From IMG/VR virus record IMGVR_UViG_3300009431_000004: 64,000 nucleotides of DNA. One strand, given 5' to 3'. Shown here piece by piece: positions 1,221 to 50,073 of the stretch. Within the stretch, counting starts at the first letter, position 1, and each line of letters starts with the position of its first letter. The position numbers and the translations under genes were made by a program. Origin of the DNA: a virus. The notes beneath the pieces were generated by a model that was given only the letters and a program-made list of their open reading frames with translations, searched no databases and was not told where the DNA came from.

Positions 1221-1251
1221 CTAATTCAGCAGATTTATAGTCTCTCCACCG
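1221..1251 (-). promoter_or_regulatory. Putative phage late promoter, copy 1
   Basis: CGGT-GGAGAGA-CTAT-N12-TTAG in the 48-nt intergenic gap. Confidence 0.7.
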
Positions 1252-4981: not shown

Positions 4982-4992
4982 CTCAGTCTCCC

Positions 4993-10154: not shown

Positions 10155-10185
10155 CTACTTGTGCGCCGAGATAGGCGCTCTATTG
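10155..10185 (-). promoter_or_regulatory. Putative phage late promoter, copy 2
   Basis: CAAT-AGAGCGC-CTAT-N12-GTAG, intergenic. Confidence 0.65.
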
Positions 10186-18427: not shown

Positions 18428-18458
18428 CCATAGAACCGGACATATAGGCCAATCATCG
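18428..18458 (-). promoter_or_regulatory. Putative phage late promoter, copy 3
   Basis: CGAT-GATTGGC-CTAT-N12-ATGG. Confidence 0.7.
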
Positions 18459-24799: not shown

Positions 24800-25587
24800 G
24801 CCTTGACCTTCCTACGCTGTGCCGCTCGCCGGGCTTCGGTCCAAGGAATCCCCTTACGGGCGGCGCTCATCCTCCGGCAAGTGGCTTCACTGCGCTTGAG
24901 GCCCGTTATCTTTTGACGCTGTTCCTCTGACCAACGTCGCCCACGATTGGCCTCCCCAATCTTGCGTTTCGTCTCGGGGCTTTGGGTCGAACCCGTCCTC
25001 GCTGCAATCGCGGCCAAGGGGGGCTGACCTTTCTTTGCATCCGAAATCGCCTGTTTATGGGCCGCTGACATTGACCCTTTTGGCACCCCTCTCTGGGCTT
25101 CAGCAACTCTCTCCCGATGTCTTTGAGTCGGGACATACCCCGAGTCTAGTGCCGCCTTCACCATCTTTGGTTGGAAAGTCGGGTCCGCCACCAGCCTCCG
25201 ACGAGTCGCATCCCCAATCTTTGCCCGAGCTTCAGCGTTTGGGGTATAGCCTTTGAAGCTGCCCGCAGTCGGGAGAGTATTCATGCCCTTCTGACCGCAC
25301 GCATCGCAAGCATCCATATAGTGCTGTTCACGGACCGCCAACTGGTCCGGGTCGGGGACCTCCTCCAATATCCGAAATGTAAAGGAATCCCCGCCGTAAA
25401 GGTCCCACGCCTTCTGAAGTCTGGGGCATCCTCTCCCCGCCCTTAGCTCCTTCACATGGTCCCGCCAGCGCCCTCGGATTCGACGGGATTGCCCAACGTA
25501 CACCTGCCCGGAAGCAGCACAGGTAATCTGGTAGACCCCCATCTCGGGGAGGTCATAGGGCCAAGCCAGTTGAAAATCCTTCGCCAT
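24796..25587 (-). CDS. GIY-YIG homing endonuclease with NUMOD3 repeats (263 aa)
   Basis: GVYQI..YVGQS..RW..H..REQHYMD..GMN catalytic domain. Repeats HKQAISDAKKG, QSPETKRKIGEANRG, RSEATCRRMSAARKG. Confidence 0.92.
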   Translation of the reverse strand: MAKDFQLAWPYDLPEMGVYQITCAASGQVYVGQSRRIRGRWRDHVKELRAGRGCPRLQKAWDLYGGDSFTFRILEEVPDPDQLAVREQHYMDACDACGQKGMNTLPTAGSFKGYTPNAEARAKIGDATRRRLVADPTFQPKMVKAALDSGYVPTQRHRERVAEAQRGVPKGSMSAAHKQAISDAKKGQPPLAAIAARTGSTQSPETKRKIGEANRGRRWSEEQRQKITGLKRSEATCRRMSAARKGIPWTEARRAAQRRKVKA

Positions 25588-25605: not shown

Positions 25606-25636
25606 TCATTGAATGGACCATATAGGCTAGACACCG
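25606..25636 (-). promoter_or_regulatory. Putative phage late promoter, copy 4
   Basis: CGGT-GTCTAGC-CTAT-N12-ATGA. Confidence 0.7.
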
Positions 25637-29433: not shown

Positions 29434-29675
29434 TAGATTCCTCCTCCGAACTTGAGCCGGGCCAACTGCTCCTTCAGGGCCACAAGCGATTTCTCATCCT
29501 GCTCCACCAACCCCTGAAAGAGGTCGCGCAGGTGCAGGAGCTTCTCCCTCTGGTCGCCCACCATGGCGGGCATCACGCGACGGGCTTCCTTCTCGTCCCA
29601 CTTACCGGGTTCGATGCCCAGCTCATCGAGGAGAGCTTTCAGCTCCTCTATCGTCTGTGGTGCCTGCTCACTCAA
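29433..29675 (-). CDS. Small coiled-coil hypothetical protein (about 80 aa)
   Basis: Probable TTG start overlapping the end of the giant gene, after GGAG. Reads (M)SEQAPQTIEELKALLDELG... Confidence 0.6.
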   Translation of the reverse strand: MSEQAPQTIEELKALLDELGIEPGKWDEKEARRVMPAMVGDQREKLLHLRDLFQGLVEQDEKSLVALKEQLARLKFGGGI

Positions 29676-38600: not shown

Positions 38601-41139
38601 CCGCGATGTCCTGCAAAGGCGGGTAGTTCAGGAAGTAGAAAGGTGTCGGCGGGACATCCTTGGTGAGGATTCCGTCTTCGATACGGTCACGGTCCCGAAT
38701 GTCCGGGGTGGCATCGGCCCGGTCCAAGTTGATGGGGCTGCGGGCCATCCCCAGAGCTGCCCCCGAGTCCGGGAGCCAGTTCTCGACCCCGCCGTCCGCC
38801 CTCCAACCGGGCAGGAATCCCAGCACGGCGGCCCCGGACAAGTCCTTCACCGGGACGCCCCCGGAACCCAGCGCACCCCAGCCAACTTCGATTGACCCCG
38901 TGTCCGGGTCGGCTGCTTCGAGGACCACGCGACCATTCTGGGCGTAGGCCGCCCCGGCGGGAAGTGGGGGAACCGAGTTGGCCATGAGGTCCGCCGCGAC
39001 CTCCTCGGGCGTGTAGAAGCTCTGGGCTGTCGGAGCTGTCCATTCGTAGGGCGTCCCGTCGATGGCGAAGTAGAGGGTCTGGGCCTCCTCGAACCGGAAG
39101 ATGTCACGGTTGCGGGAGATGAGCCGGGCCTGCGTCGTGTAGGTCGCCGGGGTCACGGTCGCCTGAAGGAAGTAGACCGGCTCGCCCGGCGTGCCTCCCT
39201 GCCAGTCGTCCAAGTCGTCCCTGCTCAACATGACGCGGGAACCGTGCGCCCCCATCTCGCGGGCCACGTAGGCTTCGCCCTTCTGGACCTTGTAAGGCTG
39301 GGAGGGCAGGTCGTCTTCGCGGTCCACCACAAGGACTGCTGCGACCGCACCCTTCTTCGAGAAGATGATGGTGTCGCCTACTCCATCCGTGACCTGCCGC
39401 AGGCGGCCCGTGTTCTGGCCCGTGGAATCATCTCCACCGGGTCGCACGCTCGCGTCGAGCAGCGGGTACTTGGGGACAGCTCCCGTGGCGTCCGGCGCAT
39501 CCAACATCCCGGACTTGCCAAGTCCGCGATATGGGTCCGAACCCACGAAGTTCTCGGGCAACACCTCCTCACAGGGCAGGTAGTATTCCGTGGCAGTGCC
39601 GACGATGGCGACACCGCCAGACTCGTTCAGGAGCTTGGTTGGCTCCTTGGTCGGCTGCGAGATGGCATTGAGGGCCACCCCGTCGTACACCACGTCCTCG
39701 CCCAAGAAGTGCTTGTCGAAGTGAACCGAGTCCGGGTCGGACTTGGCCACGTCTTCCGGGCTGAGGCGCAGGCGGCCCGTGGACAGGGACAGAACGACCT
39801 GACCCACTGCGGGACTGGCCGCCGCTTCGAGCAGAGCGTCTGTCGCCACGAGGATGGGCTGAAGGTATCGCCGGTTGCCGAGCTTCAGAAGGGGCCGGTC
39901 CGTCGGGCCGGGGATGGGCGCGAGGAACAGCGGTTGGAAGTCCGCGTCCCGCAGTGGGCCAACAATCCCGTCCGCCGTCTCGAAGAAGTGCTTGTAGCTG
40001 TACCAGATGGTCTTGCCAGCGTGCTGTGCCGCGTAGGCGGGGTTGAACTCCAACTTGCCGTTGGAGCGGCCCATGACCGCCTTGGCCGTGGGGTCGTTGG
40101 AAAAGTCGTAACCGTCCTCGACCTCGCTATCCGGGCGAATCCGAATCATGTCCACCGGGGTACTCGCCGCTCCGGGGTTCTCCCCGAGGCGAATCATGGC
40201 GTAGGCATCCGGTGTGGCCGAATCGCCCGGCAGGTAGGAGTTGACCGGCAGATTCGTGACCTTGGGGTCGAGCTGGTACATCTCGTCGAGGAGCAGCTTG
40301 CCCACATTGACGGAGCCGGTCCCCTTGTATGGCTCCCACTTCTGGGTCGTGCCGTTCCACCCGAACCGAGTCTCGTAACGGTCGTTGCGCGTCCACCAGA
40401 ACTTGGCCGGGGCCAGCGCGTACCGGACCTCCCGGATGCGGTCGCCCCGGTCGTTTGAGAGGCCGCCTTCAAGCACATCGAGAATCTGCCCGGTGTCGTA
40501 GGGCGGTTCCGGGATGAGGTCTTCGCGGGTCAGGCGCACGAGGCCCGCGTCTGCGTCTTGGTCCAGCGCCGTGAGCAGCACCGTGATGTAGGGCTTCGTC
40601 CCTTCCCGGATGGGGGTGGCCGACAGGTCGTCCTCGTCCGTCCAGCCCTCGTCGTCGTAGTCGTCCACGTCGCCACGGGAGATGACGAGGGCGATGATGT
40701 TCCCGATGGACCTGTCCCCGTTGTCCTGCACCACGACCCGGCTGGTCCCGTCCTCGAAGAAGCCGTAGTTCACGGGGGTCGGGTCGCCCGGAGGAATCAC
40801 CGCAGGAGTGTCGTCGGTGACTTGAAGCTCACCGATGGGGATGGTCCCGAAGCCCTCCTCGGTCCACCAGTCCGGGTCGAGCGCGACCGCGAGCTGGGCC
40901 GTGTTGGCCGCCCAGAGGAGGTACTCGACAGGCGTGGTGCCGGGAGCTTCGAGAACAGCGGTGCGGTACTGGTCGGCCCGAGCGTCCACGAACTCCGGGG
41001 ACTGGGGTTCCAAGGCGTAGATTGGCGGGACTTCCCGAGCGTCCCGGAGGACTCCCGTCACCGGCTCGCCGGTTGATGCCGAGTTCGAGGGCGCGATTCG
41101 AGGCGGCCTCAGAACCCATCCGTCAAAGGAGAAACCCAT
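29668..41139 (-). CDS. Giant baseplate/tail-associated structural protein (3823 aa)
   Basis: Uninterrupted 11.5-kb ORF between the spike and wedge genes. Beta-rich, Pro/Gly/acidic, with repeated modules. Confidence 0.75.
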   Translation of the reverse strand: MGFSFDGWVLRPPRIAPSNSASTGEPVTGVLRDAREVPPIYALEPQSPEFVDARADQYRTAVLEAPGTTPVEYLLWAANTAQLAVALDPDWWTEEGFGTIPIGELQVTDDTPAVIPPGDPTPVNYGFFEDGTSRVVVQDNGDRSIGNIIALVISRGDVDDYDDEGWTDEDDLSATPIREGTKPYITVLLTALDQDADAGLVRLTREDLIPEPPYDTGQILDVLEGGLSNDRGDRIREVRYALAPAKFWWTRNDRYETRFGWNGTTQKWEPYKGTGSVNVGKLLLDEMYQLDPKVTNLPVNSYLPGDSATPDAYAMIRLGENPGAASTPVDMIRIRPDSEVEDGYDFSNDPTAKAVMGRSNGKLEFNPAYAAQHAGKTIWYSYKHFFETADGIVGPLRDADFQPLFLAPIPGPTDRPLLKLGNRRYLQPILVATDALLEAAASPAVGQVVLSLSTGRLRLSPEDVAKSDPDSVHFDKHFLGEDVVYDGVALNAISQPTKEPTKLLNESGGVAIVGTATEYYLPCEEVLPENFVGSDPYRGLGKSGMLDAPDATGAVPKYPLLDASVRPGGDDSTGQNTGRLRQVTDGVGDTIIFSKKGAVAAVLVVDREDDLPSQPYKVQKGEAYVAREMGAHGSRVMLSRDDLDDWQGGTPGEPVYFLQATVTPATYTTQARLISRNRDIFRFEEAQTLYFAIDGTPYEWTAPTAQSFYTPEEVAADLMANSVPPLPAGAAYAQNGRVVLEAADPDTGSIEVGWGALGSGGVPVKDLSGAAVLGFLPGWRADGGVENWLPDSGAALGMARSPINLDRADATPDIRDRDRIEDGILTKDVPPTPFYFLNYPPLQDIAGFDEGVFFNLQTIITDGDDVQVVNKPLQHYRDIIHRFGQRKFDWVERDTIEGTVDTMTTTLNLGETAVSPESMLGAPGIGGGLYISPDGGPRVLQSQDNDYVLPQNGTPGTVILVERFGSRVASGAQGSFQEGGTAFTDPFADYTNPANPVQVGYRLKVGSSDAEGSYTVQAITSPTELDVLPPFPAASPNPVVWEVFQGFTRDVYDPTVIADITYKDFNHLQTEPFKVLMLSPVGAVPATTPAPPLQANMEAALSSGRLINIRYGLMLATAANTATLVELTQTELGPIANNVLDVPAVTSTRFTTESFSIRVGTVLYSHGSGLNPVASFSPDPGDAIEYLTAVSGPDPVGRLKFGSNVLTSYAAAPVWYVEEFLPAADMAALEVEYRPQTGDLNFSAADMAAFEGTTAYFVEQMITEQRRDVSLSPLLGAFAFTTPIPQDSSIEVEYWRADLEGRKVGEMITEFLPVFVRAEAAVRTARNTYTFGSEDTTIDQRIEPTVYIGPMMQNFGTTDYLVDYPRELNGKGRLTFVRTVEAHIPVTVSYAVFEAQGGEQAYESSQKPVYRPPFFIKAGVSEFGVWGDRTAEFELGQMFRIGEECFYVTKLTYYPPRTDSEGRDKGDVTGIGIFPTTTNEVGTRAPGNDVITVVTSEAVATEVTPHGGSPTPTNAPLGFMSEVDTSVFPFEPVSRGQKHITFTGDLTEFAQPGHVFELDGSPFTISEVTLNDDGTRTKISVTSGFRSGFSMDTPPLVKLSYRPIYPPESRDFLGVGPILLDEPYELVLDGETDSAGNPLPGRTLAEGVEYSLDPGTGNFQLLEPVQAALQPGQFLHLYFTRIRPLQPFLKDGVVATPRYAANFLYGAIPTEANGLLGALLTATYTFYNPDSFYFRCVRLPAFLGEAAREAVEEITSKQPASGAPTTAGGGDENWELGRNGLLGERSNLEDKDRAARTFLDFYNQSIEAFEQVNETISGGFIGDRDGKFRFFVGHDKDWPTPGYEDAISGLVQPRHVWSEVYNEARPDIDLTYLESDWIVAPSTVAISGGVIDGFLPDPSQLRDMTARQGQLVQNDVDDRVFIQLGKRHIARTTSFPFFDYKAKGIYARMTDQHRFSRLYPTLTRAFLMTYPGVGAEPEANDFGVYTYGRSIDGSRQSTHGETIGQLYNPVLEDITTVVTADLGLRFARGRVWAYQPDGIPAAVFTGGTEPVMAIPDPAIIAFPALLRDVPLDPDTNYPDDAQLLSQGGSIPDAGSGDYELAVPGFWQGQQLRWGRPDGTTYELYDRDNPIDVDGEPSFTGIFVREVLYGCVILLQDADDNPIADSGRVLIGLTPDSGIPLHEFPAEQGDTVFVGPPIGSMTGVGPNEFQDPPEFVDFERMANALDSYRTGFDLDIKSDGRLVDKTYPSFHDPFWFGFKELFGQKPPDPMTAIEGPVEFLYMGQNPLRVPALDGGITDDSGDYQIPYMRAGDTELDRFDEIGASFPRVMVAVDGLGNAVYPDEILGNDGEVMTAPALLPATLQTVQDPSRTGVGEGTVRPYDVILMQPPGPFATEGPMGIHTVGAVYDPQPPSPLPPGPPYGFEPPRFVAHTAPAPGGGVSDTGDPVRYTFDDAMVWLDPSQTYPDFPAPGLPGVEVIEDTALGVTILDFSSIGQFELNNGLLPAVGNLNDVWGLVGPKATNVIAIKFILRKDFAVQFWPLGASGPPFPNMSGGVIGITMFIIGPNVWTVDWDGNPLAIPAVVPGITFGDSHPAYPSPTNQQIIVQGTGWFPWFNLGGPPPPPPGQENEWFLPYVTPAPGVYRTLYGQEFSFDINTAGGESTTGWIAEDRLTFHEVYDLRMAKERGYVHPIVPLPPFVQLELESKLVVTEVLAPNPNPAPDPHYWTEVNSYTNGLDPAPPNDPIPYTFLLRHGQTEVGSWEPATAAPEAELATIKVMGFEGHGNTPITGDNVTFSAMPSNDNAEGTTNICGGVGLAAGFHNTDLTPNERRTSDNRLVIETPPALGGLALIQKGDLCVVNSSVDAAHPASTKLGTYLIRHVVEPNAGAPVRREVSPTTVAGAGNGWCPLEFPRVVDFDPATHELTITFLPQTKYTGAPLVNGKYSAFPAVGAGRVYLIRDLSALASGVVADFRYGLISAAYTSFVSPGEEAVFTLDPATYRDALNTLIATDAEFDALIGNRALQVSGMTYLPVAMGGSEYGLPDDNCVGVEDPLAERGFRHVTLCPPIQTGGADLLFTGPAGISTGAGTPLRLRENNPVGSNNFEADLTTPIYHNVVDTLDIMNVPHPQWETLNTAAPPGPTLVDCLLPGTQLAVADLAGPVVPGYWAQGGIFFEPSFPRSVANLSVLDALVVDRTHPIADPLAAVPDWEKESWFRNELEYAGTQYPGGAATTLDAREEVQYTVRSVRRWHEIMEEAGDHFRALRFAYEMRRGRINDYSTNVRQRGVVTASFVMNWNVSNPAAPLAPDVWNDGFSYDGTNLGPFDDPDVNINAGDRFRLLDDDGTLIEEVEITGVEDSVTLKLAMPGITRRTPAELTALGGMRFEIYLRQPPVPHEQSNEQLLELISDREVYRSDADWDTEEGGYVEEIPPGGDYETVVNKMYDDQLTSGSQTFGTVGVRVGDIVVIDPAGTLPQHGGLPAVPDRGARPLGDLGVTSRWPAPPHDWAGKPSELDDNRGFYRVLKVIGGATPHLEVDPISTYAGGINDTNWVTFASGTTPNREYAIYPTISDSGLTGAIAPFEGQMDLRPTAKRDPVTQTYKGNDYSIRPFSYKVIRPSGLFSDEAIDLVLTMRERMLSLVEMLRALLRGWKYGSYYEFQDKEHISDLGIVTDPESGMGVLSNAFIEEIIGELGTVPFMNNRSCLSLLDRRFWIFDLRLDRLTHADPPYQNVAMKLSAPGGTPYTAYTDDIGGGSDVRPVLPERIDLVLDESDRFRPIRYVWLAYRVHKILGTLAGIKRFDEELPERLAERERLLLLEEATESIVE

Positions 41140-41142
41140 CCG

Positions 41143-41751
41143 TTACACCACCACGCAAACCGTCGGCCCGGACATCGGAACCGGCGGAACTGTCGGCACT
41201 CCTACAACTGCACCTGCCCCAGTACCCTGTAACAATAGGCTGGCTATTCCAATGCCCAGCCCGGTTGCCATCATGCTGAGGGCTGGCCCCGGCCCCAGAG
41301 TCGCGGTCAAGGTCTGCATTAACATACCGACGAGGGAGGCCGAATTGGCCACCGTAATCTTCGAGACATCCGCCCCCACCCCGACGCCCGCCGCCGGTCC
41401 CACGTACTGGGCCGATGCGTTGAAGGCGGTCGAGATGCCGGTTGAGATGGCGAGGGCGAGGCTCTGCGCCAGAGGACCCACCATCCCGGCCCCGGCCAGC
41501 CCGGCCTGCACCAGTCCCGGATTGGGTGGCACGATGACCTTCGAGGCCACGGGGTTCACAGCTCCTCCGCCGGACACTCCGGTTGCCAACCCGGTCAAGC
41601 CGAGGTTCTGCGGCTGCATGATTCCCCACTGGGAGACTCCGTTTGCAACCCCGAGCGCCATCCGGTCGTAGTTCACCCCGCCGAAGGAGTGGATGCCCGA
41701 AGTCCGCGCCAAGGAGAGCGAGGAGTAGAGGATGCCGGGGTTCAGTGCCAT
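41143..41751 (-). CDS. Gly/Ala-rich spike-associated protein (about 202 aa)
   Basis: ATG at 41751 after GAGGAG (MALNPG...). Three LAxG(I/V)xxG(I/V)-like helical repeats. Confidence 0.65.
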   Translation of the reverse strand: MALNPGILYSSLSLARTSGIHSFGGVNYDRMALGVANGVSQWGIMQPQNLGLTGLATGVSGGGAVNPVASKVIVPPNPGLVQAGLAGAGMVGPLAQSLALAISTGISTAFNASAQYVGPAAGVGVGADVSKITVANSASLVGMLMQTLTATLGPGPALSMMATGLGIGIASLLLQGTGAGAVVGVPTVPPVPMSGPTVCVVV

Positions 41752-41758
41752 ATTCTCC

Positions 41759-42544
41759 TCAAGGCCCAACGATGTGGGACTCGACGACAAGTCGGCACAA
41801 CCGGAAGAACTCTTGCTGGTCCATGTCCCATTTCATTTGCTGCACCCGCTTGTCCACCCACTGGATGTTCCCTTCGACGTACCCCTTTCTGCTGTCGATT
41901 CGGTCTAAAGAAGCGGTCCCCTTCCGCGCCCCGACGGGCGGGAAGTGAATGGGAAGTCCGGTTAAGGCACACTTTCCGCCCTGCTTCTTGAACAAGTCCC
42001 ACACCTCTCGTAAGGACACACCGACCTCCAACCCACGAGCTTGGGCGTTGTTCAGGATGTTGGACCAGAAGGTCTTAGGTATCTTGCCCACACCCTGCCA
42101 ATTATGCGCCCTCTGCCCCCTCCGGCGACGCCCCATGGCCGAGGCGGATTCTTTGGCGAGGCAGCCACAACTTCGAGTCGTCCCATTAGAGAGGTTGGAT
42201 AAAGACACCACTTTCCGTTTCCCGCAATCACAACGACAGTCCCACCGAGTCCCCCCTGACTGCGTGCTTCTCTGATTACGACCCTCTACCACGAGCCGCC
42301 CGAATCTCTTTCCCACCATCTCTGCTTCAGGAAACGCTCTCCAAGAAGCCCCCCTCAGACACCCACAGCTTTGCGTGTGGCCGGACCGGACCTTGGTGAG
42401 AACTTTGATGACCGAAGCCCCACAGGAGCATTGAAACGTCGCCTGTGTCCGGCCATTCTTGTGGGGCGGGGCGGCCCCCCGCAGAGTAAGCTCGCCAAAC
42501 TGCTGCCCAATCAGCTCCTCAACGCTAATTTTCGGCGCACCCAT
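41759..42544 (-). CDS. HNH-type (DRID variant) homing endonuclease with two Cys-rich N-terminal repeats (about 261 aa)
   Basis: G(Q/K)xFGxL..CxCG..G.TxSCGC occurs twice. C-terminal QGGKCALTG..ASLDRIDSRKGYVEGNIQWV. Confidence 0.85.
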   Translation of the reverse strand: MGAPKISVEELIGQQFGELTLRGAAPPHKNGRTQATFQCSCGASVIKVLTKVRSGHTQSCGCLRGASWRAFPEAEMVGKRFGRLVVEGRNQRSTQSGGTRWDCRCDCGKRKVVSLSNLSNGTTRSCGCLAKESASAMGRRRRGQRAHNWQGVGKIPKTFWSNILNNAQARGLEVGVSLREVWDLFKKQGGKCALTGLPIHFPPVGARKGTASLDRIDSRKGYVEGNIQWVDKRVQQMKWDMDQQEFFRLCRLVVESHIVGP

Positions 42545-42568
42545 TGTGACCCTTTCACTGTGTTGTCT

Positions 42569-42599
42569 TGTTAGAGGGCGTCCCATAAACTAACTACCG
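42569..42599 (-). promoter_or_regulatory. Putative phage late promoter variant driving the HNH gene
   Basis: CGGT-AGTTAGT-TTAT overlaps the spike stop codon. The downstream element is degenerate (AACA). Confidence 0.45.
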
Positions 42600-45016
42600 A
42601 CGATATGGGACTTGGCTCCCATGCCAAAAGTAGAGAAAGGCAAATTCGTGAAGGGGTCGAGCGACCCGGCACAGATGATTGGCCCTTGGTCCGGCCCAGA
42701 GATGGGGCCACCGAGATAGACCCCGGAACCTCCCTTGAGCGTGGCTGTCCCTGCGGCAGAGGAAACCGTGGCCGCCGCCTGACCTTCCATCGTGGCCGTC
42801 CCGGCGGATGCCTTCAACGAGACGTTCCCCGCCTTGGCCGCCCCGGTGATGCCCGATGAACTCAGCTCCATGCTGCTTGTGACTGCCTTGGCCTTCCACA
42901 CACCGAGCTTCAGGTCGAAGGTCATGTTGCCGACGAGAATCTCCGTCTTGTGGTTTCCGAGGGTGAACTTTTCTCGCCGGTCCCCCGAGGTATAGGTGAC
43001 TTTTTCTGCAACCATTCCGGGGAACGCGGGCGAGTAATTCCGCTCATGGAGCGGCCCCGAGGTCGGGAGAAGCCCTTTCGGCCCGGCGTAACTTTCTTGG
43101 GCCTTCCCGTTGACAGTCTTGTGAAAAGCGTCCGTCGTGAGGGACATCGACTTGGTGGCATTCAGGTCCATATTCTGGTGGGCCGTGACCTGCACCGAGG
43201 TCGCGTTGCCGTCGATGATGTTGCCCTTCAGGAACACGGTCTTCTCGGCCTTCACCCGGACATTGGTGCGCCCTTGGATGTCCACCGACGGCAGGTTGCC
43301 GGAGCCTTGGCCCGAACCCGAGACGGACTCCACCTTGTCCGAGGCGTCCTTCGGCCCTCCGCCCCCGAAAATCTTGACCTGCCCGGCCTCGGACGAGAGG
43401 TCGAGACTGTTTTGGCTCCGGGTGCCGAGACTCACATGGCCGTTGAGCAGCAGTTCGAGTTTCCCGCCCATGCCGAGCTTCAGGCCGCCGTGGAGGTATG
43501 CCTCGATGGACGACTCTCCCGGAGGACCCCCGATGGATGCCTTGAGCTGCCCCTTCTTGTTGAGGGACCAGAACGTCTCCGGGCCGCCGGGTCCGATGGG
43601 CGGTGTCAGCTTCATCAGCGTGGCAGCCTGTTCTTCCAGCGGGGTCGGCTGAACCCCGGACCCCGGAAGAGGGATGTTGGCCGCTTCGAGCCGTGGGGAA
43701 GGAGTCGTTCCATCGAAGATAATGGCTTGGAGGGGCAGGCCGTACATGGTCCGGCCCTGCTGGGAGAACGGGTCGTTCCCGACCACCGACCCCATCACGC
43801 ACTCGATGAAAGGCATGTTCGGCGGCAGCCCCTCGGGAGCTGAGGACGGGTCAGTCGAGGGAAGCCGCTCCGCGTCGAACCCGTCCGTCTGCTCGGTGAC
43901 AGGGAGGCGGCCATCCGAGGTGTGTGTCACGTCGATGCGGTACTCGGTCAGGGTCGGTTTGTCCGGGTCGAGGTGCGCGTTATCCCGAGACTGGGAGGAC
44001 ACACGGTAGATAATTTTCCCACCGTAGATAGCGTCCGGCTCTTGTGTGCCGGGGGCCACGAAGCCCGTCTCGTCGATGAATCCGCCGAGACGCATGAACT
44101 CGTAGGGGTCGAGGTACGGGTTGTCCCCGAGGAAGCTGCGCCCGAGATAGCCGCCTTCCGCATCCTTGAGGCCCTTCCGCAGGATACGGGCAGGAGTCAG
44201 GAAACCTTCAGGAGACTGCTGGTCTGTCGGCAGGCCAAGGTCACTGACCGGCTCCTTCGCGGATGCTTGGCGGCTGCCATCCCAAAGATTGTCATCCCCC
44301 ACCATGGAAGGGTGAAGGGCCAGTGCGTCCCGTTGCACCATCCCGGCGTAGACTCGCGCCCCAGCAAGAGCTTGGAAACTCTGCAAGGCCCGAAGAATGG
44401 CCGCTTGGTCTTGGTCCCGCAGGCGGAACTCATTACCACGCCTGTTGGCGAGCCGGACGCTTTCGTCCAGAATGAAATCCGCCCCCTGAGACGAGCTGGC
44501 CACCACGTTACCGGGCTGGGCGTGCCGGAGTTTGTGTCGGACGCGGTTGTAGGCACCTTCCGCGAACTGCCGGTCCACAGGGGACTCTTGGTCGAACTCG
44601 TCCACTCCGAATTCGCCAGTCGTCAGCCACTCACGACCGGGCCAGACTCCGGGGATAATCCACGTCAGAATCACGGGGGAGCGGGTGCCTTGGGAGTTGC
44701 TGCTCTCCTGTGGCAGCCAGCCGATGATGCAAGTGTCCCCCACCTCGGGCATTGCGCCGAAGAAGTGCCTCGCCCCTGCTCCGGGGAAGGTCAACGGGAT
44801 GGGCACACGCTCGAAGGTGTCGGACGCCCCTGTGAGCGTCTGTAGAGTGACGTAGAACTCCTCGTAGTCGATGGTGACGACCTTGGCGACCCCCAGACCC
44901 CAACCCGTCTCCGGGCGCATCTTCTTGAGGTCGGTCTTCGCCTTGGTCGTGGTGGAACGCATCGCCCCGCGAGAAACGGTATCCAGCACTCCTACAGGTC
45001 TGCGGGTTTCCGGCAT
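42590..45016 (-). CDS. Baseplate central spike (gpV/gp5/VgrG C-terminal-like), 808 aa
   Basis: OB-fold-like N-terminus AKVVTIDYE..MPEVGDTCIIGW. C-terminal short beta-strand repeats. Follows the hub gene. Confidence 0.75.
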   Translation of the reverse strand: MPETRRPVGVLDTVSRGAMRSTTTKAKTDLKKMRPETGWGLGVAKVVTIDYEEFYVTLQTLTGASDTFERVPIPLTFPGAGARHFFGAMPEVGDTCIIGWLPQESSNSQGTRSPVILTWIIPGVWPGREWLTTGEFGVDEFDQESPVDRQFAEGAYNRVRHKLRHAQPGNVVASSSQGADFILDESVRLANRRGNEFRLRDQDQAAILRALQSFQALAGARVYAGMVQRDALALHPSMVGDDNLWDGSRQASAKEPVSDLGLPTDQQSPEGFLTPARILRKGLKDAEGGYLGRSFLGDNPYLDPYEFMRLGGFIDETGFVAPGTQEPDAIYGGKIIYRVSSQSRDNAHLDPDKPTLTEYRIDVTHTSDGRLPVTEQTDGFDAERLPSTDPSSAPEGLPPNMPFIECVMGSVVGNDPFSQQGRTMYGLPLQAIIFDGTTPSPRLEAANIPLPGSGVQPTPLEEQAATLMKLTPPIGPGGPETFWSLNKKGQLKASIGGPPGESSIEAYLHGGLKLGMGGKLELLLNGHVSLGTRSQNSLDLSSEAGQVKIFGGGGPKDASDKVESVSGSGQGSGNLPSVDIQGRTNVRVKAEKTVFLKGNIIDGNATSVQVTAHQNMDLNATKSMSLTTDAFHKTVNGKAQESYAGPKGLLPTSGPLHERNYSPAFPGMVAEKVTYTSGDRREKFTLGNHKTEILVGNMTFDLKLGVWKAKAVTSSMELSSSGITGAAKAGNVSLKASAGTATMEGQAAATVSSAAGTATLKGGSGVYLGGPISGPDQGPIICAGSLDPFTNLPFSTFGMGAKSHIVGS

Positions 45017-48000
45017 CAGTCTTCCTCGGCTCCTTGCGTAAACGCGCTCTGAAGATTACCGGAGGCATCCACGATATTCGTCACCGCAGGCCCGAGCGCG
45101 GCCACTGCTGCGCCGGTCTTTGCCCCTGCTGCGTCAAACGCTTCCTTCGACCCCTTAATCGTGTCCACGATGGAGGTAGGTCGCTGGTCCGGCAGGCTGC
45201 CCGCGAGGGCGTCCCGTGACATCTGCCAGCCCACCGCCCGCTCTGCCGACGTGGACATGAGCCATGAAGTCACCCGGTCCTGCGTGCCATCGCCGTAGTC
45301 TGTCGGAACGGTGGTCGCGGGGGCCACGAACTTCACGAAGTCCTCCTGCCCCGCCGCTTCGAGGAGGGTGTTCGCCTCGGCCATCTTGCACTGACAGACG
45401 TTCTTGCCGACGGCCAAGGTCATGTCTGCCAGAGAGTAGGCCGCGTTGTTAATAGGCACCTTCTGGATACCGTCCTTGCCCTTCTCCGCGAACCAGTTGG
45501 ACAGTCCGAACTGAAGGACATTCGGGTCGTCCGTCTCCACGGCCAGCCCGAGGTCGAGAATCTGCTTGTCGGTCAACCGGGTTTGGAGCTTCTCTAAGAC
45601 GATTTTCTCCAAGGCGGTCCGGGCCTCGGGGGCGGCTAGTGTCTTCTTGACCGTCTTCGTCTTCCCGTCCAGCCCCGTTTCGGTCGTCGTAATCGTGATG
45701 GGTTGGCCCTTGATGAAAGCCCGCACAACTTGGTCGATGGTGTGCTTGTCGAGGAGCTGAAGAGGGTCTTGAGCGTGCATCACGGCGAAGACCCCTTCCG
45801 GGTCGATGTCCACGTCCCGGCCATACCGGAAAGCACCGATGACCTCGTAGCCGCCTGCATCGGACACCGGGAACACGGGACTCTGCACGTTGCCCTTGTA
45901 GGTCTTGAGCTTCCGCGTCTTCACCTTCGACCGGCGCTGGCTCGTTCCCGCCCCCGCCAACCCGTTGAAGGTACTCAAGGCCAGCTTGGCATCTTCTTCG
46001 CTCAACTGGGAGATTTTCATGACCTTGAACCACGACTTCCGGGCGCTCTCCATATCTCGAAACAGACGGTATCCGAGGCCCTTTGAAGCGGCTTTATAGA
46101 ATTGCTCAACGGTGTAGCCGCCGCCTCCTGAAAAAGCCGTGTCCCCTCCCGCCGTGGCCCCGATGAAGTCGTACTCCCCCATCACGGCGCTCATCGGGAT
46201 GGATGTATTGCGGAAGGTTATCCCCGAGGGAAAGGCAAGTGCAGGGAACGCTGGCACTTTGTTCTGCTGTGCCGCTGGCAGCGCGGCCTTAGCAGCCACC
46301 GCTGCATCCACAAACTTCTGGGCCAGTTCCTCCCACGGGCCTTTAGTGATGGCCCCAAGGGTGGAGGTCAATCGGGTTTCCTCGTCCGAGGAGGCCAGCA
46401 CCTTCTGATAGAAGGCCGTCCCCAGTGACTTCTGGGAACCCTTGGTCAAGTCCGGGTGGGAGGACTTGGGCGAAGTCGTCGTAAGCGGCTTCTTCAGGGA
46501 CACCTTGTGAGAGGCGAACATCAACTCCCGAATCTCACTGGTGGGCAACACCTCGCCGCTGGGTGCTTCCGGGTTGTTGGTGAAGACCTTGATGCCCCAC
46601 TCCGGCTCCATCTCCCCGAGGGTCGCCGCAGGCACCTTGTCCCCAGCAGCGACCGTCTTCTTGGAGTCCTCCACGAAACCTATGACCTTCGGACCCTTCC
46701 AGACGGCCTCCAAGAATGGGTTGGATGTCTCGACGGCCTTGTCATCCACCGACTTCTTCACCTTGAAGTTGGGCTGTAGTTGTCCCTGATGTTCCTTGCT
46801 CGGGTGGGAAGCCGAGTAATACCGATAGGTTCCGGGCAGCGTCCCGTTGGTCATGATGGACTTCTTGTCCGAGAGCATGTCGAGGAGGCTCGACGGGGAG
46901 TTGATGTCCCCGAACGTCTCCCCCTCGGTCTGCTGCTTCGTCTTGTACGACTCCCCCACAACCGAGATGAGCTGGTTGAGGTACGAGATGTCCGTCTGCT
47001 GGCCCGGTTCCAGTGTTTCCCAGAAAGCCAGCTCCTCCGCACGAATATGACTGTTGGCATCCTTTATCTGCTTTTCCAGCTTCTCCCAGTCCTTGGCAAT
47101 CTTGTCGAGCGCCACTTTGTGGTCCGCCGCAGGCTTCAGGTTCCGCACTTGGGAATCGAGGGTTACGAGGTCGGACTCCCATTTCCTGATATTGACCAGT
47201 TGCTCGTCCCGCTTCTGGACGTAGGCCGCCTTGTGGGCGTTGTAGGCCCCAGCGAGCTTTCTGATGTCCTTGGCACCCGACGGAGCCGACCCCCCGCTTT
47301 CCGAGAAGTAGAACGAGATGTTCCCCATCTCCGATACCGCCGACTTGTAGACAGGGCCGGGGTTACTGGGGTCCTCGGTCGTCAGGACTTTGAGTTGGAC
47401 GGCCTGCTTCAGGAAATTGTTGATGGTGTCCTCATTGTCGAGGACAGCAACATCAGACCCCACGATAAAGAACAGCGGGTTTAGCTGCTCAGGGTCGAGC
47501 GCCATGACCACGTTAGGGAAGCCTGCCAGCCGGGGACGGTCTGCCATGTCCAACACCTCCAACGGCCTCTGGGGGAGCCGGGTATTGGAGAGGTCGATGG
47601 CGTCGATGCCGGTCTTGTCCACCCTGCCGGGCGCGTAGAACTTGGACCGCTTCCCGACGAGCTGGATGGTGGTGGTGCATTGACCACCCACAGAGAAGCT
47701 GTGCGCGAAGGAGTTGTTGTAGTAGAAGCAATCGAGGTACGCAATATAGACCGGGTAGCCGGGCCGAATCTCGGGCCGCAACGGGATGGTTAGCGACGCC
47801 GAAGTCGTAGGGACGTTCATCACATCCATGCGGTTCACGGCAGCGAAAAACATGCTCTTGGGGTCGTTGAAGTAGGCTGTCTCGTAGTCGCCGGGCCGCC
47901 AGCCAAATTGGGCCACCAGCCGGTAGTCGATGTACTGGCCCTTGACGCCCCACTCATTCTCCATCCCGTGGCCCGCCAAATTCTTGATTTGGGAACCCTT

Positions 48001-50073
48001 CACGGTCATGTACGTGACCTGCGGCTCCTTCTCGTCGAAGTTGATGGAGATGATGTCGATGTCCTCGATGCGGTAGACCCGCGAGGACGAGGTGTCCATG
48101 TTATACATCGGCGGCTTGAACACGAAATCGCCATCCACGTCTTGGTAGAACTCGAACCCCGTGACCTCACAGACTCTCTGGATGATGTCGAGCTTCGATT
48201 CGTAGGTGGCCTCGAACAGTTGAACCTGCCCGAAGTTACCGATGTTGGCCACGAACGCCTGCATCTCCACCATGTTCATCTCGAACTGCGGGGTCTTGGC
48301 GTTGGTGCCACCGGGCTGGGAACGCCGAAGCCATTGAAGTGCCTCCAACTTCCTGTTGTTGAACATCCCGAGGGAAAGTGCCTGTTGCAGGATGCTCCCC
48401 GTGTCCGCCTGACCGGACTTGTCGAACCGCTCCCGCATCAGTCTGGTCAGTTGAGAACTCTTGGTCTGGGAGAGCCACGCGGCCTGCGCGGAGTTGAACA
48501 GCTCCCCCGTCGCCCCGTGCATCCTGAGCTTGATGTCCCGTGTCTGGAATCGACGTTCCCAGTAGCGCAGGTTCAGGGAGAACAGGGACTCCCCTGTCAC
48601 CGGGCTGCGGGCGTCCTGATTCGTCTTATGGGACAGCGCCCATTCCACGCCTGCGGCGGACCCGGCCACGTCGTGGTGCATCTTGTAGATGATTTCGTAG
48701 GGGTGCATCCCCGTGAAGTTGTGGCCCACGAGGGACATCTTGAGCTTCGAGTTGTGCGGGCGTGCGCCGAACAGCGACGCATTGGTCGAGACACGCTGGT
48801 ACTCCCAGAAATGGAGCATCGAGGCACACTGGATGGAGACAGTCTGGACCCCACCGCTATAGGAATGCGAAACCTGCGTGATAACCCCGTGGAAGACGTG
48901 GTAGTAGGGGTACGCGAGGATATTCTCGATGTCCTTGCCGGACAGGCCAGCCTCATCCAACGCCGATTCCCCGAAATCAGGGGGCTTCGTGACAGGTGAG
49001 ATGTCTGTCTCTTCCGGGGTGTCCTGCCCGAGAACCTGATTGAGATTTGGCACTTCGTCCCCGACGGCAGGTGGGTTCAGGGACGCACCCTCGGAATTGT
49101 ACGCATCGACGAGATGCTGGCCGCCATGTTCCTTGGCCCACGCCAGAGAATCGGCGGTGTTGAGTTCCGTGCCGTCCGCCAGCGTGATGTGGAACCATTG
49201 GTCGCCACCTTGTTTGGGGTAAGGGAACCCGTAGTGGCCCCGAAAGTCGTAGTGAGTTGATGATGTCTTCCCTGTCTCGGGATTCTTGTAGAAGCCGTTG
49301 CCCCCGGTTGGTAGCCGCCCGGCATTCTCCAACGCCCACGTCCCGGCCCAGACCTCCTCTACTGGAACTTGCTTCTTGTCCCCGTTCTCGTCCCAGTAGA
49401 ACACGCGGTAGTCAGTGGCAGCCCCTTGACCGTGGTTGGCTGAGTCGCTGCGCCCATCGACATGGCTGCCTATCCAGACCTTGGCGTTCGGGTACTTCTG
49501 CTGCCAATATCGCTCGACGACTTCCACGACCCCGGCGGAGATGGTAGACCACGGATACCCGTCTTTGGCCATGCCTTGCGTCTTCCACTTGTTCTTCAGG
49601 TCGTCTGGCACCTTGCTGAAGTCGATGTCCCCGAATTCATCAGTGGAATGGCCACCTTCCAGACCTGCGAGAGGCGCTCCCGACACCGTGAACTCGTCGT
49701 GGTCTTCCAAGTCCTTCAAGTTCTGGGGCTGGTCGAGGTTCGAGTACATCCCCTTCACCGGGAAGTACCCACGCTCGTAGATGTGGACTTCGAGGCCGGG
49801 TCGCAGGATGAACTTCGCGTCGCGGGCGAACGCCTCGTTGTGGTGGATGGGGATGGACAGCGTGAAGCTGGCCGACGCCCCGCCGGGTTCCACCCCGGCG
49901 TCCACCGACACCTCGGTTATAAACTGCTGAATGTCGATTTTGCCGTTGCACTTCGGGCAGCCGGGGATGGCCAAGTCGCCGTTCAGGTAGACCAGCGCAT
50001 CCGGGGTGTGCTGGACCACCTGCTTGCCAGCCAGTTGCCAGCTACCGACGTATGGCCGATGTTCGACACCCAT
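45016..50073 (-). CDS. Baseplate hub (gp27/gpD-like) with inserted M15-type metallopeptidase domain (1685 aa)
   Basis: Hub motifs VFHGVITQV, FEFYQDVDGDFVFKPP, PLRPEIRPGYPV. Peptidase motif SANHGQGAATD...GNGFY...HYDFRG. Confidence 0.8.
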   Translation of the reverse strand: MGVEHRPYVGSWQLAGKQVVQHTPDALVYLNGDLAIPGCPKCNGKIDIQQFITEVSVDAGVEPGGASASFTLSIPIHHNEAFARDAKFILRPGLEVHIYERGYFPVKGMYSNLDQPQNLKDLEDHDEFTVSGAPLAGLEGGHSTDEFGDIDFSKVPDDLKNKWKTQGMAKDGYPWSTISAGVVEVVERYWQQKYPNAKVWIGSHVDGRSDSANHGQGAATDYRVFYWDENGDKKQVPVEEVWAGTWALENAGRLPTGGNGFYKNPETGKTSSTHYDFRGHYGFPYPKQGGDQWFHITLADGTELNTADSLAWAKEHGGQHLVDAYNSEGASLNPPAVGDEVPNLNQVLGQDTPEETDISPVTKPPDFGESALDEAGLSGKDIENILAYPYYHVFHGVITQVSHSYSGGVQTVSIQCASMLHFWEYQRVSTNASLFGARPHNSKLKMSLVGHNFTGMHPYEIIYKMHHDVAGSAAGVEWALSHKTNQDARSPVTGESLFSLNLRYWERRFQTRDIKLRMHGATGELFNSAQAAWLSQTKSSQLTRLMRERFDKSGQADTGSILQQALSLGMFNNRKLEALQWLRRSQPGGTNAKTPQFEMNMVEMQAFVANIGNFGQVQLFEATYESKLDIIQRVCEVTGFEFYQDVDGDFVFKPPMYNMDTSSSRVYRIEDIDIISINFDEKEPQVTYMTVKGSQIKNLAGHGMENEWGVKGQYIDYRLVAQFGWRPGDYETAYFNDPKSMFFAAVNRMDVMNVPTTSASLTIPLRPEIRPGYPVYIAYLDCFYYNNSFAHSFSVGGQCTTTIQLVGKRSKFYAPGRVDKTGIDAIDLSNTRLPQRPLEVLDMADRPRLAGFPNVVMALDPEQLNPLFFIVGSDVAVLDNEDTINNFLKQAVQLKVLTTEDPSNPGPVYKSAVSEMGNISFYFSESGGSAPSGAKDIRKLAGAYNAHKAAYVQKRDEQLVNIRKWESDLVTLDSQVRNLKPAADHKVALDKIAKDWEKLEKQIKDANSHIRAEELAFWETLEPGQQTDISYLNQLISVVGESYKTKQQTEGETFGDINSPSSLLDMLSDKKSIMTNGTLPGTYRYYSASHPSKEHQGQLQPNFKVKKSVDDKAVETSNPFLEAVWKGPKVIGFVEDSKKTVAAGDKVPAATLGEMEPEWGIKVFTNNPEAPSGEVLPTSEIRELMFASHKVSLKKPLTTTSPKSSHPDLTKGSQKSLGTAFYQKVLASSDEETRLTSTLGAITKGPWEELAQKFVDAAVAAKAALPAAQQNKVPAFPALAFPSGITFRNTSIPMSAVMGEYDFIGATAGGDTAFSGGGGYTVEQFYKAASKGLGYRLFRDMESARKSWFKVMKISQLSEEDAKLALSTFNGLAGAGTSQRRSKVKTRKLKTYKGNVQSPVFPVSDAGGYEVIGAFRYGRDVDIDPEGVFAVMHAQDPLQLLDKHTIDQVVRAFIKGQPITITTTETGLDGKTKTVKKTLAAPEARTALEKIVLEKLQTRLTDKQILDLGLAVETDDPNVLQFGLSNWFAEKGKDGIQKVPINNAAYSLADMTLAVGKNVCQCKMAEANTLLEAAGQEDFVKFVAPATTVPTDYGDGTQDRVTSWLMSTSAERAVGWQMSRDALAGSLPDQRPTSIVDTIKGSKEAFDAAGAKTGAAVAALGPAVTNIVDASGNLQSAFTQGAEED

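What the first reader, a model, noticed from the sequence alone, without database searches (positions are those of the whole stretch)
41759..42613. HNH endonuclease ends with the spike gene's own C-terminus, and the replacement end doubles as its promoter
Seen: the spike ends AAG TCC CAT ATC GTC GGT AGT TAG (KSHIVGS*, 42590-42613). The HNH ends GAG TCC CAC ATC GTT GGG CCT TGA (ESHIVGP*, 41759-41782). Differences in SHIVG are synonymous. The altered codons GTC GGT AGT TAG create the CGGT-N5-G..TTAT late promoter motif pointing into the HNH. Inference: the mirror image of the GIY-YIG case. Insertion near the 3' end fused the old end and downstream RBS to the endonuclease, and the imported end restores the gene, confers immunity and supplies transcription. 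Two unrelated nuclease families using end-swapping in one operon suggests a general strategy in this phage group.
Basis: partly seen in the sequence, partly recalled or inferred. Interest (0 to 1): 0.75.

Follow-up and report, generated by a model that had tools for sequence, protein, structure and literature searches.

The report
HNH homing gene swaps spike end
A selfish DNA-cutting (HNH) gene sits inside the last few codons of a huge phage's tail-spike gene: the spike keeps a working end upstream of it, and a second copy of that end is fused to the nuclease. This layout is known from fungal mitochondria and yeast, but I found no published phage case.

Summary
The spike (42590-45016, minus strand) ends KSHIVGS*. 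The HNH gene (41759-42544) ends ESHIVGP*, with three synonymous differences. SHIVG occurs nowhere else in six frames of the window.

It is not chance. The tail is the conserved C-terminus of this spike family (GAK-x-H-[ILV]-V-[GT]-x*). It is carried by 11-13 of the 15 closest HNH homologues and by 0 of 105 distant ones. This HNH clade is found only at this site. It occupies 8 of about 76 IMG/VR spike loci plus one locus with a more distant HNH, in five separate lineages (window included). The four placed on the spike tree each have an HNH-free sister.

So this is a free-standing homing endonuclease lying between two copies of the spike's last 6-10 codons. The downstream copy keeps the native stop/RBS/start junction with the next gene.

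It fails for this phage's nearest HNH-free relative, which ends GS* with the same codons as the window's upstream copy. It also fails in a fifth lineage.

The promoter claim is weak but not empty.

The closest known cases are mitochondrial mORFs and yeast WHO elements. Earlier notes of this scan report similar end-swaps elsewhere in this genome.

The parts
42590..45016 (-). Baseplate central spike / hub-like gene (808 aa, P0001), the host gene of the insertion. It ends with the family consensus ...FGMGAKSHIVGS*.
   Evidence: ORF and translation. 760+ homologues of about 800 aa on contigs up to 528 kb. No Pfam or PHROG hit. Atlas neighbours carry Phage_base_V / Gp5_OB at score 0.95. Weak VgrG-like PDB hit, E 0.18. 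The name 'spike' is therefore a lead, not proven.
42596..42612 (-). Copy 1 of the 17-nt direct repeat (AG TCC CAT ATC GTC GGT), the functional end of the spike. It is followed by AGT TAG (42590-42595).
   Evidence: The last four codons GTC GGT AGT TAG are 11/12 identical to copy 1 of the occupied loci L196 and L167, although the spikes are only 58-60% identical.
42545..42589 (-). 45-nt leader between the spike stop and the HNH start. It holds the TTTATG box and a GAAAGGG ribosome-binding site (42550-42556).
   Evidence: Leader length (45-46 nt) and the block TCG[GC]TAGTTAG-N-YTAT are conserved in window, L196 and L167 (alignment A3).
42584..42599 (-). Promoter-like motif CGGTAGTTAGTTTATG, which overlaps the spike's last codons and its stop.
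   Evidence: It matches CGRT-N5-G-N-YTAT-R, a pattern with four hits in the window. All four are on the minus strand and lie in intergenic gaps 35-50 nt upstream of a start codon (that pattern was derived after seeing the sites). It fails the third box of CRRTR-N6-YTAT-N13-TRR. Function untested.
41759..42544 (-). Free-standing HNH-type homing endonuclease gene (261 aa). It has two N-terminal Cys-rich repeats (CxC...SCGC) and a C-terminal nuclease domain.
   Evidence: PHROG phrog_374 'HNH endonuclease', E 9e-41. Start fixed by the invariant M15. AlphaFold model pLDDT 77. The C-terminal domain (residues 160-271) is closest to PacI (Z 6.4) and to the Gme, McrA, Cas9 and IscB HNH domains. No Pfam hit.
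41765..41781 (-). Copy 2 of the direct repeat (AG TCC CAC ATC GTT GGG), fused in frame to the HNH. It is followed by CCT TGA (41759-41764).
   Evidence: SHIVGP* is a bona fide spike-family end: many homologues end H[ILV]VGP*. Distant HNH homologues end about 6-10 residues earlier, near LC+xVxEH.
41752..41758 (-). GGAGAAT spacer and ribosome-binding site between the old spike stop and the next gene.
   Evidence: The HNH-free relative L162 has TAG GGGGATAGG ATG GCA CTG at the same place.
41143..41751 (-). Downstream Gly/Ala-rich gene (202 aa, P0003). In HNH-free relatives it directly follows the spike.
   Evidence: In the IMG/VR loci without an HNH, where the start of this gene is recognised, it mostly lies 0-20 nt after the spike stop, often as an overlapping TGATG or TAATG.

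Best explanation
The HNH gene is a free-standing homing endonuclease whose home site lies inside the last roughly 6-10 codons of the spike gene. The element sits between two copies of those codons.

The upstream copy, with a TAG stop, completes the spike. It overlaps a conserved leader that carries a promoter-like box and the ribosome-binding site of the nuclease. The downstream copy is fused in frame to the nuclease, so the nuclease terminates at a spike-type stop. That keeps the stop/RBS/ATG junction through which the next structural gene is presumably translated.

The two copies give the element homology on both sides with an unoccupied allele. A break made in such an allele during co-infection can then be repaired by copying the element in. 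Recombination between the copies can also remove it. The element was built once, by an insertion that had to supply a substitute gene end. It has since persisted by gain and loss across this phage family.

Shown here: the architecture, the homology of the tail, the site-specificity, the presence/absence polymorphism, and the mosaic ends in relatives.

Inferred: cleavage, immunity, promoter activity, translational coupling, and which copy is the resident one in this particular phage.
For: (1) Both ends read SHIVG at the same offset from the stop; chance is about 9e-7.
(2) 80 of 119 spike homologues end H-x-[ILV]-[GTSI]-x(0-3)*, so the HNH tail is a spike-family end.
(3) 11 of the 15 closest HNH homologues fit the same regular expression, and 2 more carry variant tails. 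None of 105 more distant homologues does. Their tails run 6 to 10 residues (e.g. LGAKNHIVGT, AKNHLVIG).
(4) In IMG/VR, 8 of about 76 spike loci with a complete 3' end have the HNH between the spike and the downstream gene. In the rest the two genes abut.
(5) A DNA-motif scan for the clade found exactly those 8 contigs and none in GTDB genomes. A second motif scan added L258 at the same site.
(6) On the spike tree the four occupied lineages placed there are each sister to an empty one.
(7) Reciprocal mosaic in L196 against its empty sister L164. Copy 1 reads AKAHV|IGS*, copy 2 reads GAKGHI|VGA*, and L164 reads AKAHV|VGA*. The stop/ATG overlap is shared by copy 2 and L164. L204 copy 2 equals the sister L180 end (11/12 nt), and its copy 1 equals the end of L210 from another clade.
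(8) HNH tails AKNHLVIG and AKNHLVTG are identical to the spike ends of P0007 and of P0005/L163; L163 is HNH-free by its DNA, while the occupancy of P0007 and P0005 is unknown.
(9) No intron or other RNA family was found at the site.
Against: The nearest HNH-free relative of this phage (L162) carries the copy-1 type end GTC GGT AGT TAG, not the copy-2 end. So the simple 'downstream copy = old end' reading fails here.

In L258 the fused tail (GAPPNHRVGP*) resembles ends of a different spike clade. There the tail apparently travelled with the nuclease.

HNH divergence (52-63%) parallels spike divergence (50-60%), so no recent transfer is demonstrated.

The nuclease has D-R-I-D where canonical HNH enzymes have the catalytic His. 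It has no Pfam hit, and its fold matches are only Z 5-6, so activity is not shown.

Confidence: 0.8

Rival explanations
1. Reverse polarity in this phage. The GS*/TAG end (copy 1) is the window lineage's own end. The HNH arrived together with its already fused GP* tail from a donor, and the right-hand crossover lay in or beyond the spacer. This is a variant of the main explanation about history only; the architecture is the same.
For: L162, the sister lineage without the HNH, has GTC GGT AGT TAG. That is 12/12 nt identical to window copy 1, against 6/12 for copy 2. In L258 the fused tail is clearly foreign to its spike clade. L173, the empty sister of L167, also ends GS*.
Against: The same (G/A)TC G(G/C)T AGT TAG end occurs in the occupied loci L196 and L167, whose spikes are only 58-60% identical. 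[IV][GA]S* ends are otherwise seen only in L162 and L173, which sit next to occupied lineages on the tree. That fits an end linked to the cassette and retained after loss of the HNH. The window's GGAGAAT spacer resembles L162's, so the far side of copy 2 looks resident.
Confidence: 0.4
2. The shared tail is a selected peptide, for example a docking or assembly tag. It would let the nuclease bind the partner of the spike's C-terminus. On this view it is not a by-product of insertion.
For: The tail is kept in frame in most members of the clade.
Against: Tail length varies from 6 to 10 residues. It has decayed to an apparently frameshifted remnant in L167 (SARRD*) and is absent in P0131. The tail always abuts the native stop/start junction. 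It also tracks lineage-specific spike ends letter for letter (P0125 = P0007, P0127 = P0005/L163, L204 = L180), as DNA recombination predicts.
Confidence: 0.05
3. Read-through or recoding of the single TAG joins the spike and the HNH into one protein, or the element is an intein or intron. The second SHIVG would then be the true end of a long spike.
For: In the window, the spike ORF and the longer HNH ORF (from 42586) are in the same frame, separated only by TAG plus one codon. The same holds for L167.
Against: In L196 and L204 the HNH is in another frame, and L196 has an in-frame TAA in the leader. TAG ends 8 of 26 genes here, and the long ORFs are intact under table 11. The conserved HNH start is M15 with its own ribosome-binding site. 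No group I or II intron model matches.
Confidence: 0.02
4. Chance similarity of two short C-termini.
For: Only five residues and 14 of 17 nt are shared.
Against: The probability at a fixed offset is about 9e-7. The same phenomenon recurs in 11-13 of the 15 closest homologues and in every occupied locus read except L167, where it has decayed.
Confidence: 0.005

Closest known systems
Mitochondrial mobile ORFs (mORFs) with a C-terminal duplication of the host gene: Allomyces macrogynus atp6; Glomus sp. atp6, atp9, cox2, nad3; Rhizopus atp9; Mortierella cox2 (PMC3630166, read)
   Same: An endonuclease ORF inserted in the 3' end of a conserved gene. An inserted substitute C-terminus completes the gene. 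The native C-terminus is left downstream of the endonuclease. In some cases (Glomus atp6, nad3) the pieces are in phase. In those cases the native copy matches element-free relatives better than the inserted copy does, as here in L196/L164 and L204/L180.
   Different: Those are LAGLIDADG or GIY-YIG enzymes in organelle genomes, with duplications of about 50-300 nt. Here it is an HNH-type enzyme in a huge phage. The duplication is only 18-30 nt. The displaced end is translated as the nuclease's own C-terminus and serves as the junction to the next gene. The polarity is not uniform across lineages.
WHO elements at the aldolase gene FBA1 of Torulaspora and Lachancea yeasts (PMC7282813, read)
   Same: A homing element that is neither an intron nor an intein. 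[quoted passage not shown] That fragment serves as the second homology arm. Homing replaces the 3' end with a cleavage-resistant version. There are cycles of degeneration and re-invasion.
   Different: WHO genes are intein-derived LAGLIDADG-zinc-finger nucleases. The duplicated fragment is about 400 bp and untranslated. Cleavage and resistance were shown experimentally there and not here.
Free-standing homing endonucleases of T-even phages (Seg and Mob families; 'intronless homing'). Named from established knowledge; not found described with an end duplication.
   Same: Phage-encoded, free-standing GIY-YIG/HNH genes between or beside conserved genes. They are sporadic among relatives and spread by break repair with co-conversion of flanking markers.
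   Different: The classical cases sit in intergenic positions or split a gene into two pieces. To my knowledge they are not described as flanked by two copies of a gene end, or as wearing the host gene's last codons.
Other end-swap cassettes noted by this scan in the same genome (e1-5678117 endolysin C-end; e1-5678125 5'-end swap), and the GIY-YIG at window 24796-25587
   Same: The same logic: a nuclease gene inside the end of a conserved gene, with a duplicated gene end on the other side.
   Different: Different nuclease families and different gene ends. Here the duplication is the shortest and is fused in frame. Here a family-wide survey also shows gain/loss and mixed polarity. The two earlier notes were not re-tested by me.

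Membership tests
Free-standing homing endonuclease gene (phage 'intronless homing' type) | Encodes a nuclease of a recognised homing-endonuclease family | tested here: met
   PHROG phrog_374 'HNH endonuclease', E 9e-41, plus four other endonuclease PHROGs. The C-terminal domain is nearest to the PacI, Gme, McrA, Cas9, IscB, ZRANB3 and Cap5 HNH domains, at Z 4-6.4. There is no Pfam hit.
Free-standing homing endonuclease gene (phage 'intronless homing' type) | Intact catalytic residues or demonstrated cleavage of the unoccupied allele | not testable with these tools
   The invariant motif is ASLDRIDS..GY..N.QW, with Arg where canonical HNH enzymes have His. The motif is conserved across the family, but activity needs a bench assay.
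Free-standing homing endonuclease gene (phage 'intronless homing' type) | Sporadic presence at one fixed site among related genomes, with precise empty alleles | tested here: met
   8 of about 76 IMG/VR spike loci plus L258 are occupied, all at the same site. The empty sisters are L162, L164, L173 and L180/L183.
Free-standing homing endonuclease gene (phage 'intronless homing' type) | Own start, stop and expression signals; not inside an intron or intein | tested here: met
   Conserved M15 start with a ribosome-binding site and a 45-nt leader. No Rfam match at E up to 1. The spike ORF closes with TAG before the HNH.
Free-standing homing endonuclease gene (phage 'intronless homing' type) | Signs of recombination or co-conversion at the flanks | tested here: met
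   Reciprocal mosaic of copy 1 and copy 2 in L196 against L164. In L204 copy 1 resembles the L210 end and copy 2 the L180 end. The direction (gain or loss) is not resolved.
Homing elements with a duplicated host-gene 3' end (mitochondrial mORFs, yeast WHO elements) | Host gene's 3' end present twice, flanking the endonuclease gene | tested here: met
   A 17-nt repeat in the window (42612-42596 and 41781-41765). Relatives carry up to 10 codons.
Homing elements with a duplicated host-gene 3' end (mitochondrial mORFs, yeast WHO elements) | The upstream copy completes an intact host gene | tested here: met
   The spike ORF is full length (808 aa, against 780-830 in homologues) and ends with the family consensus.
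Homing elements with a duplicated host-gene 3' end (mitochondrial mORFs, yeast WHO elements) | The downstream copy is the resident one, closer to element-free relatives than the upstream copy | tested here: inconclusive
   Met in L196/L164 (10/12 against 4/12 nt) and L204/L180 (11/12 against 6/12). Not met in window/L162 (6/12 against 12/12). In L258 the downstream copy is of a foreign type.
Homing elements with a duplicated host-gene 3' end (mitochondrial mORFs, yeast WHO elements) | The occupied allele is resistant to the element's own nuclease | not testable with these tools
   Only the sequence differences between the copies are visible: three synonymous changes, and different flanks on each side.
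Intein or group I/II intron carrying an endonuclease | Element is removed at the RNA or protein level; splicing motifs or an intron RNA fold present | tested here: not met
   No RNA family match. A stop codon and a separate start lie between the spike and the HNH. No intein blocks were reported by Pfam or PHROGs.

The most novel reading that the evidence does not exclude
Huge phages of this family may host a class of 'end-swap' homing cassettes that invade coding sequence without an intron or intein. The cassette would carry a substitute gene end that doubles as its own promoter or operator. It would use the 18-30 bp displaced end both as its downstream homology arm and as its own C-terminal codons, so that the stop/start junction of the operon stays intact. 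Unrelated nuclease families (HNH here, GIY-YIG 17 kb away, others noted elsewhere in the genome) would have converged on the same trick. That would make it a general and so far undescribed route of phage gene invasion.
Probability: 0.45. Interest if true: 0.7.

Novelty: new variant of a known kind. Interest (0 to 1): 0.55.

Why it matters
Free-standing phage homing endonucleases are usually pictured as sitting between genes. This one sits inside the end of an essential structural gene yet leaves both that gene and the operon's stop/start junction intact, using only 18-30 bp of duplicated coding sequence.

If this is general, three things follow:
- It would explain how nuclease genes can colonise tightly packed, translationally coupled structural operons.
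- It would be a source of mosaic gene ends that confuses phylogenies and gene calls.
- It would be a natural model of minimal homology arms for break-driven gene insertion.

It also links phages to a mechanism so far described only in fungal mitochondria and yeast nuclei.

Tried and rejected
**DNA context of the closest HNH homologues.** P0123, P0125 and P0127-P0129 could therefore not be read in context.

**Collection scans with the HNH alignment.** The scans of IMG/VR and of metagenome contigs returned only distant HNHs (44% identity or less), because the patterns chosen were family-wide.

**GTDB genomes.** No copy of the clade motif was found. No whole genome is held for this window.

CGGT-N5-G-N-TTAT with up to one mismatch gave 7 hits against 6 expected. 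With a two-base gap it gave 2 hits against 6 expected, so the pattern as written is not enriched. A sigma-70 scan found one site inside the spike end and nothing informative.

**Spike structure.** The monomer model was too poor to search (pLDDT 53). A PDB profile search gave only a VgrG-like hit at E 0.18.

**Pfam.** Nothing for the spike, the HNH or the downstream protein.

**Explanations rejected.** TAG read-through, an intein or intron, a peptide tag, and chance. The reasons are given under the rival explanations.

**Literature.** Searches for a phage precedent found none. This covers open-access text only and is not proof of absence.
Full report
**1. What is in the window**

All genes here lie on the minus strand, in a tightly packed structural operon:
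- a 1685-aa ORF (45016-50073);
- the 808-aa protein P0001 (42590-45016);
- the nuclease gene (41759-42586 as the longest ORF);
- a 202-aa Gly/Ala-rich protein, P0003 (41143-41751);
- a 3823-aa giant ORF (29668-41139).

P0001 ends AAG TCC CAT ATC GTC GGT AGT TAG. The nuclease ends GAG TCC CAC ATC GTT GGG CCT TGA. GGAGAAT and then ATG GCA CTG of P0003 follow. SHIVG occurs nowhere else in six frames of the window. The chance of five matches at a fixed offset from the stop is about 9e-7.

**2. What the two genes are**

P0001 has no Pfam or PHROG hit. It has over 760 homologues of about 800 aa on contigs up to 528 kb. One is a 485-kb uncultured phage in GenBank, at 38% identity. Language-model neighbours carry Phage_base_V and Gp5_OB, and a profile search gives a weak VgrG-like hit. 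'Baseplate spike' is therefore a reasonable but unproven name.

The nuclease matches PHROG HNH families at E 9e-41. In a 16-sequence alignment the invariant Met is residue 15 of the long ORF. The gene therefore starts at 42544, giving 261 aa, with a GAAAGGG ribosome-binding site and a 45-nt leader. Its model (pLDDT 77) has two small N-terminal Cys-rich modules and a C-terminal domain. That domain is nearest to PacI (Z 6.4) and to several other HNH domains. The usual catalytic His is an Arg (D-R-I-D), so activity is not shown.

**3. The tail belongs to the spike family**

The spike family ends in a conserved motif, GAK-x-H-[ILV]-V-[GT]-x*. 80 of 119 homologues fit H-x-[ILV]-[GTSI]-x(0-3)$, and many end ...HIVGP*.

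Among HNH homologues, 11 of the 15 closest (45-64% identity) fit the same expression, and two more carry variants. None of 105 more distant ones does; those end about where the window's protein reads ...LCRLVVE. The tails run from 6 residues (this window) to 10 (LGAKNHIVGT). Some are letter-for-letter spike ends of the family: AKNHLVIG equals the end of P0007, and AKNHLVTG equals the end of P0005/L163. The tail is therefore spike-derived DNA and not an HNH feature.

**4. Site-specific and sporadic**

Eighty IMG/VR loci encoding spike relatives were fetched. Of about 76 with a complete 3' end, eight contigs have the HNH between the spike and the P0003 homologue. These represent three different sequences: L167-170, L196/198/224 and L204. 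In the others no HNH was detected, and where the start of the downstream gene is recognised it mostly lies 0-20 nt after the spike stop, often overlapping as TGATG or TAATG.

A degenerate DNA pattern for the clade's QW.[DEH]KR.Q.MKW motif found exactly those eight contigs in IMG/VR and none in GTDB genomes. A second pattern added L258. Its spike belongs to the window's own clade (it is P0004), but its HNH is only 45% identical to the window's.

On a spike tree built without the last 12 residues, each of the four occupied lineages placed there is sister to an empty one: window/L162, L196/L164, L167/L173 and L204/(L180, L183). HNH identities (52-63%) parallel spike identities (50-60%). The picture is therefore long persistence with repeated loss and re-invasion, not a demonstrably recent transfer.

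**5. The two copies in relatives**

- *L196 and its empty sister L164.* In L196, copy 1 reads AKAHV-IGS* (TAG) and copy 2 reads GAKGHI-VGA* with a TAATG overlap. L164 (75.5% spike identity) reads AKAHV-VGA* with a TGATG overlap. Over the last four codons, copy 2 matches L164 at 10/12 nt and copy 1 at 4/12. Further upstream, copy 1 is the one that matches. This is a reciprocal mosaic, as expected from crossovers within the repeat.
- *L204.* Copy 2 (AKGHLVTP*, TAATG) matches the sister L180 at 11/12 nt. Copy 1 (GHIITP*) equals the end of L210, which belongs to another clade.
- *Copy 1 across occupied loci.* The copy-1 ends of window, L196 and L167 are (G/A)TC G(G/C)T AGT TAG, 11/12 alike, although these spikes are only 58-60% identical. 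Their leaders are 45-46 nt long and share TCG[GC]TAGTTAG-N-YTAT.

**6. Where the model fails**

L001/L162 is the closest HNH-free relative of this phage (71%). It ends NHNVGS* with GTC GGT AGT TAG, then GGGGATAGG ATG GCA CTG. That is 12/12 with the window's copy 1 and 6/12 with copy 2. L173, the empty sister of L167, also ends GS*, though with TGA.

There are two ways to read this. Either these are lineages that lost the HNH while keeping the cassette-type end; this is plausible, because [IV][GA]S* ends occur only beside occupied lineages on the tree. Or GS* is native to these clades, and in the window the GP* tail came in with the nuclease.

In L258 the fused tail GAPPNHRVGP* resembles the ends of a different spike clade, so there the tail did travel with the nuclease. 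In L167 the tail has decayed to SARRD*, which looks like a frameshifted GAKG....

The polarity in this particular phage is therefore unresolved. I put it near even.

**7. The promoter claim**

Three of those seven hits do lie in the few intergenic gaps, however. A tightened pattern, CGRT-N5-G-N-YTAT-R, hits four times. All four are on the coding strand, 35-50 nt upstream of starts: gene 2-1204, gene 16455-18395, the GIY-YIG gene and the HNH. I derived that pattern after seeing the sites.

It has four exact hits against 0.02 expected, but the HNH site is not among them, because its third box is missing at the fixed spacing and it has TTAT where the others have CTAT. The codons GTC GGT AGT TAG also occur in the HNH-free L162, so they were not created for the HNH.

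The junction block is conserved across three occupied lineages. That argues for some DNA-level function, such as a promoter or an operator. Nothing more can be said without transcript data.

**8. Mechanism proposed**

*Shown:* the nuclease gene lies between two copies of the spike's last codons. The upstream copy closes an intact spike. The downstream copy gives the nuclease its stop and keeps the native junction to P0003.

*Inferred:*
- The nuclease cuts unoccupied alleles near these conserved codons.
- The two copies serve as left and right homology, so that repair copies the element in.
- The occupied allele escapes cutting because the target is split between the two copies, or because it is recoded.
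- Ending at the old stop preserves translational coupling of P0003.
- Recombination between the copies, or deletion between the two stops, removes the element again.

**9. What is known**

The same layout is described in two places. One is fungal mitochondrial mORFs, with an inserted C-terminus, an endonuclease and a native C-terminus, sometimes all in phase (PMC3630166). The other is yeast WHO elements at FBA1, where the duplicated 3' fragment is proposed as the second homology arm and the replaced end confers resistance (PMC7282813). Partial C-terminal duplications next to endonuclease ORFs are also noted in another fungal mitochondrial genome (PMC6279837).

I found no phage description in four searches and one phage homing-endonuclease survey.

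Earlier notes of this scan report two similar end-swaps elsewhere in this same genome; I did not re-test them. In this window, the GIY-YIG gene at 24796-25587 begins MAKDFQLAWP and the gene after it begins MSRDFALAWP.

**10. Verdict**

It is a new variant of a known kind, of moderate interest.

Noticed in passing
window 23597-25587 (minus strand): The GIY-YIG homing endonuclease gene (24796-25587; phrog_314, E 2e-27) begins MAKDFQLAWP. The 400-aa gene that overlaps its stop (23597-24799) begins MSRDFALAWP. This is a duplicated gene start on both sides of the nuclease, the 5' mirror image of the HNH case.
   Followed up: partly
window 1221-1251, 10155-10185, 18428-18458, 25606-25636 (minus strand): Three-box motif CRRTR-N6-YTAT-N13-TRR. 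It has four exact hits against 0.02 expected. All lie in the intergenic gaps over 40 nt, upstream of starts. The HNH leader matches only the first two boxes.
   Followed up: partly
L162 6395-6418; L173 6392-6412: Two HNH-free spike loci end GS*, like the cassette-linked copy 1 of occupied loci. Each is the sister of an occupied lineage. They may be footprints of HNH loss that kept the substitute end.
   Followed up: partly
L258 (IMGVR_UViG_3300009128_000074), about 4198-5075 on the minus strand of the locus: A second, distant HNH lineage (45% identity; P0140) occupies the same site in a spike of the window's own clade (P0004). Copy 1 is AKAFNIGP* and the fused tail GAPPNHRVGP* is of a foreign type. 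Its leader holds a CCCTATAT box.
   Followed up: partly
L167 7175-7236: The HNH of this lineage ends VVTHSARRD*. At the DNA level this looks like a frameshifted and shortened remnant of a GAKGH... spike tail, so the fused tail can decay.
   Followed up: no
window 42584-42592: The spike ORF and the longest HNH ORF are in the same frame, separated only by TAG plus one codon. The same holds in L167 but not in L196 or L204, so this is probably coincidence.
   Followed up: yes
window 41759-42109 (HNH nuclease domain): The family-wide invariant motif is ASLDRIDS-x-KGY-x(3)-N-x-QW. It has Arg where canonical HNH enzymes have the general-base His, and Pfam has no model that matches.
   Followed up: partly
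window 29668-41139 and 41143-41751: A 3823-aa ORF directly follows the 202-aa Gly/Ala-rich protein. Neither the small protein nor the spike has a Pfam or PHROG family; the giant ORF was not examined.
   Followed up: no
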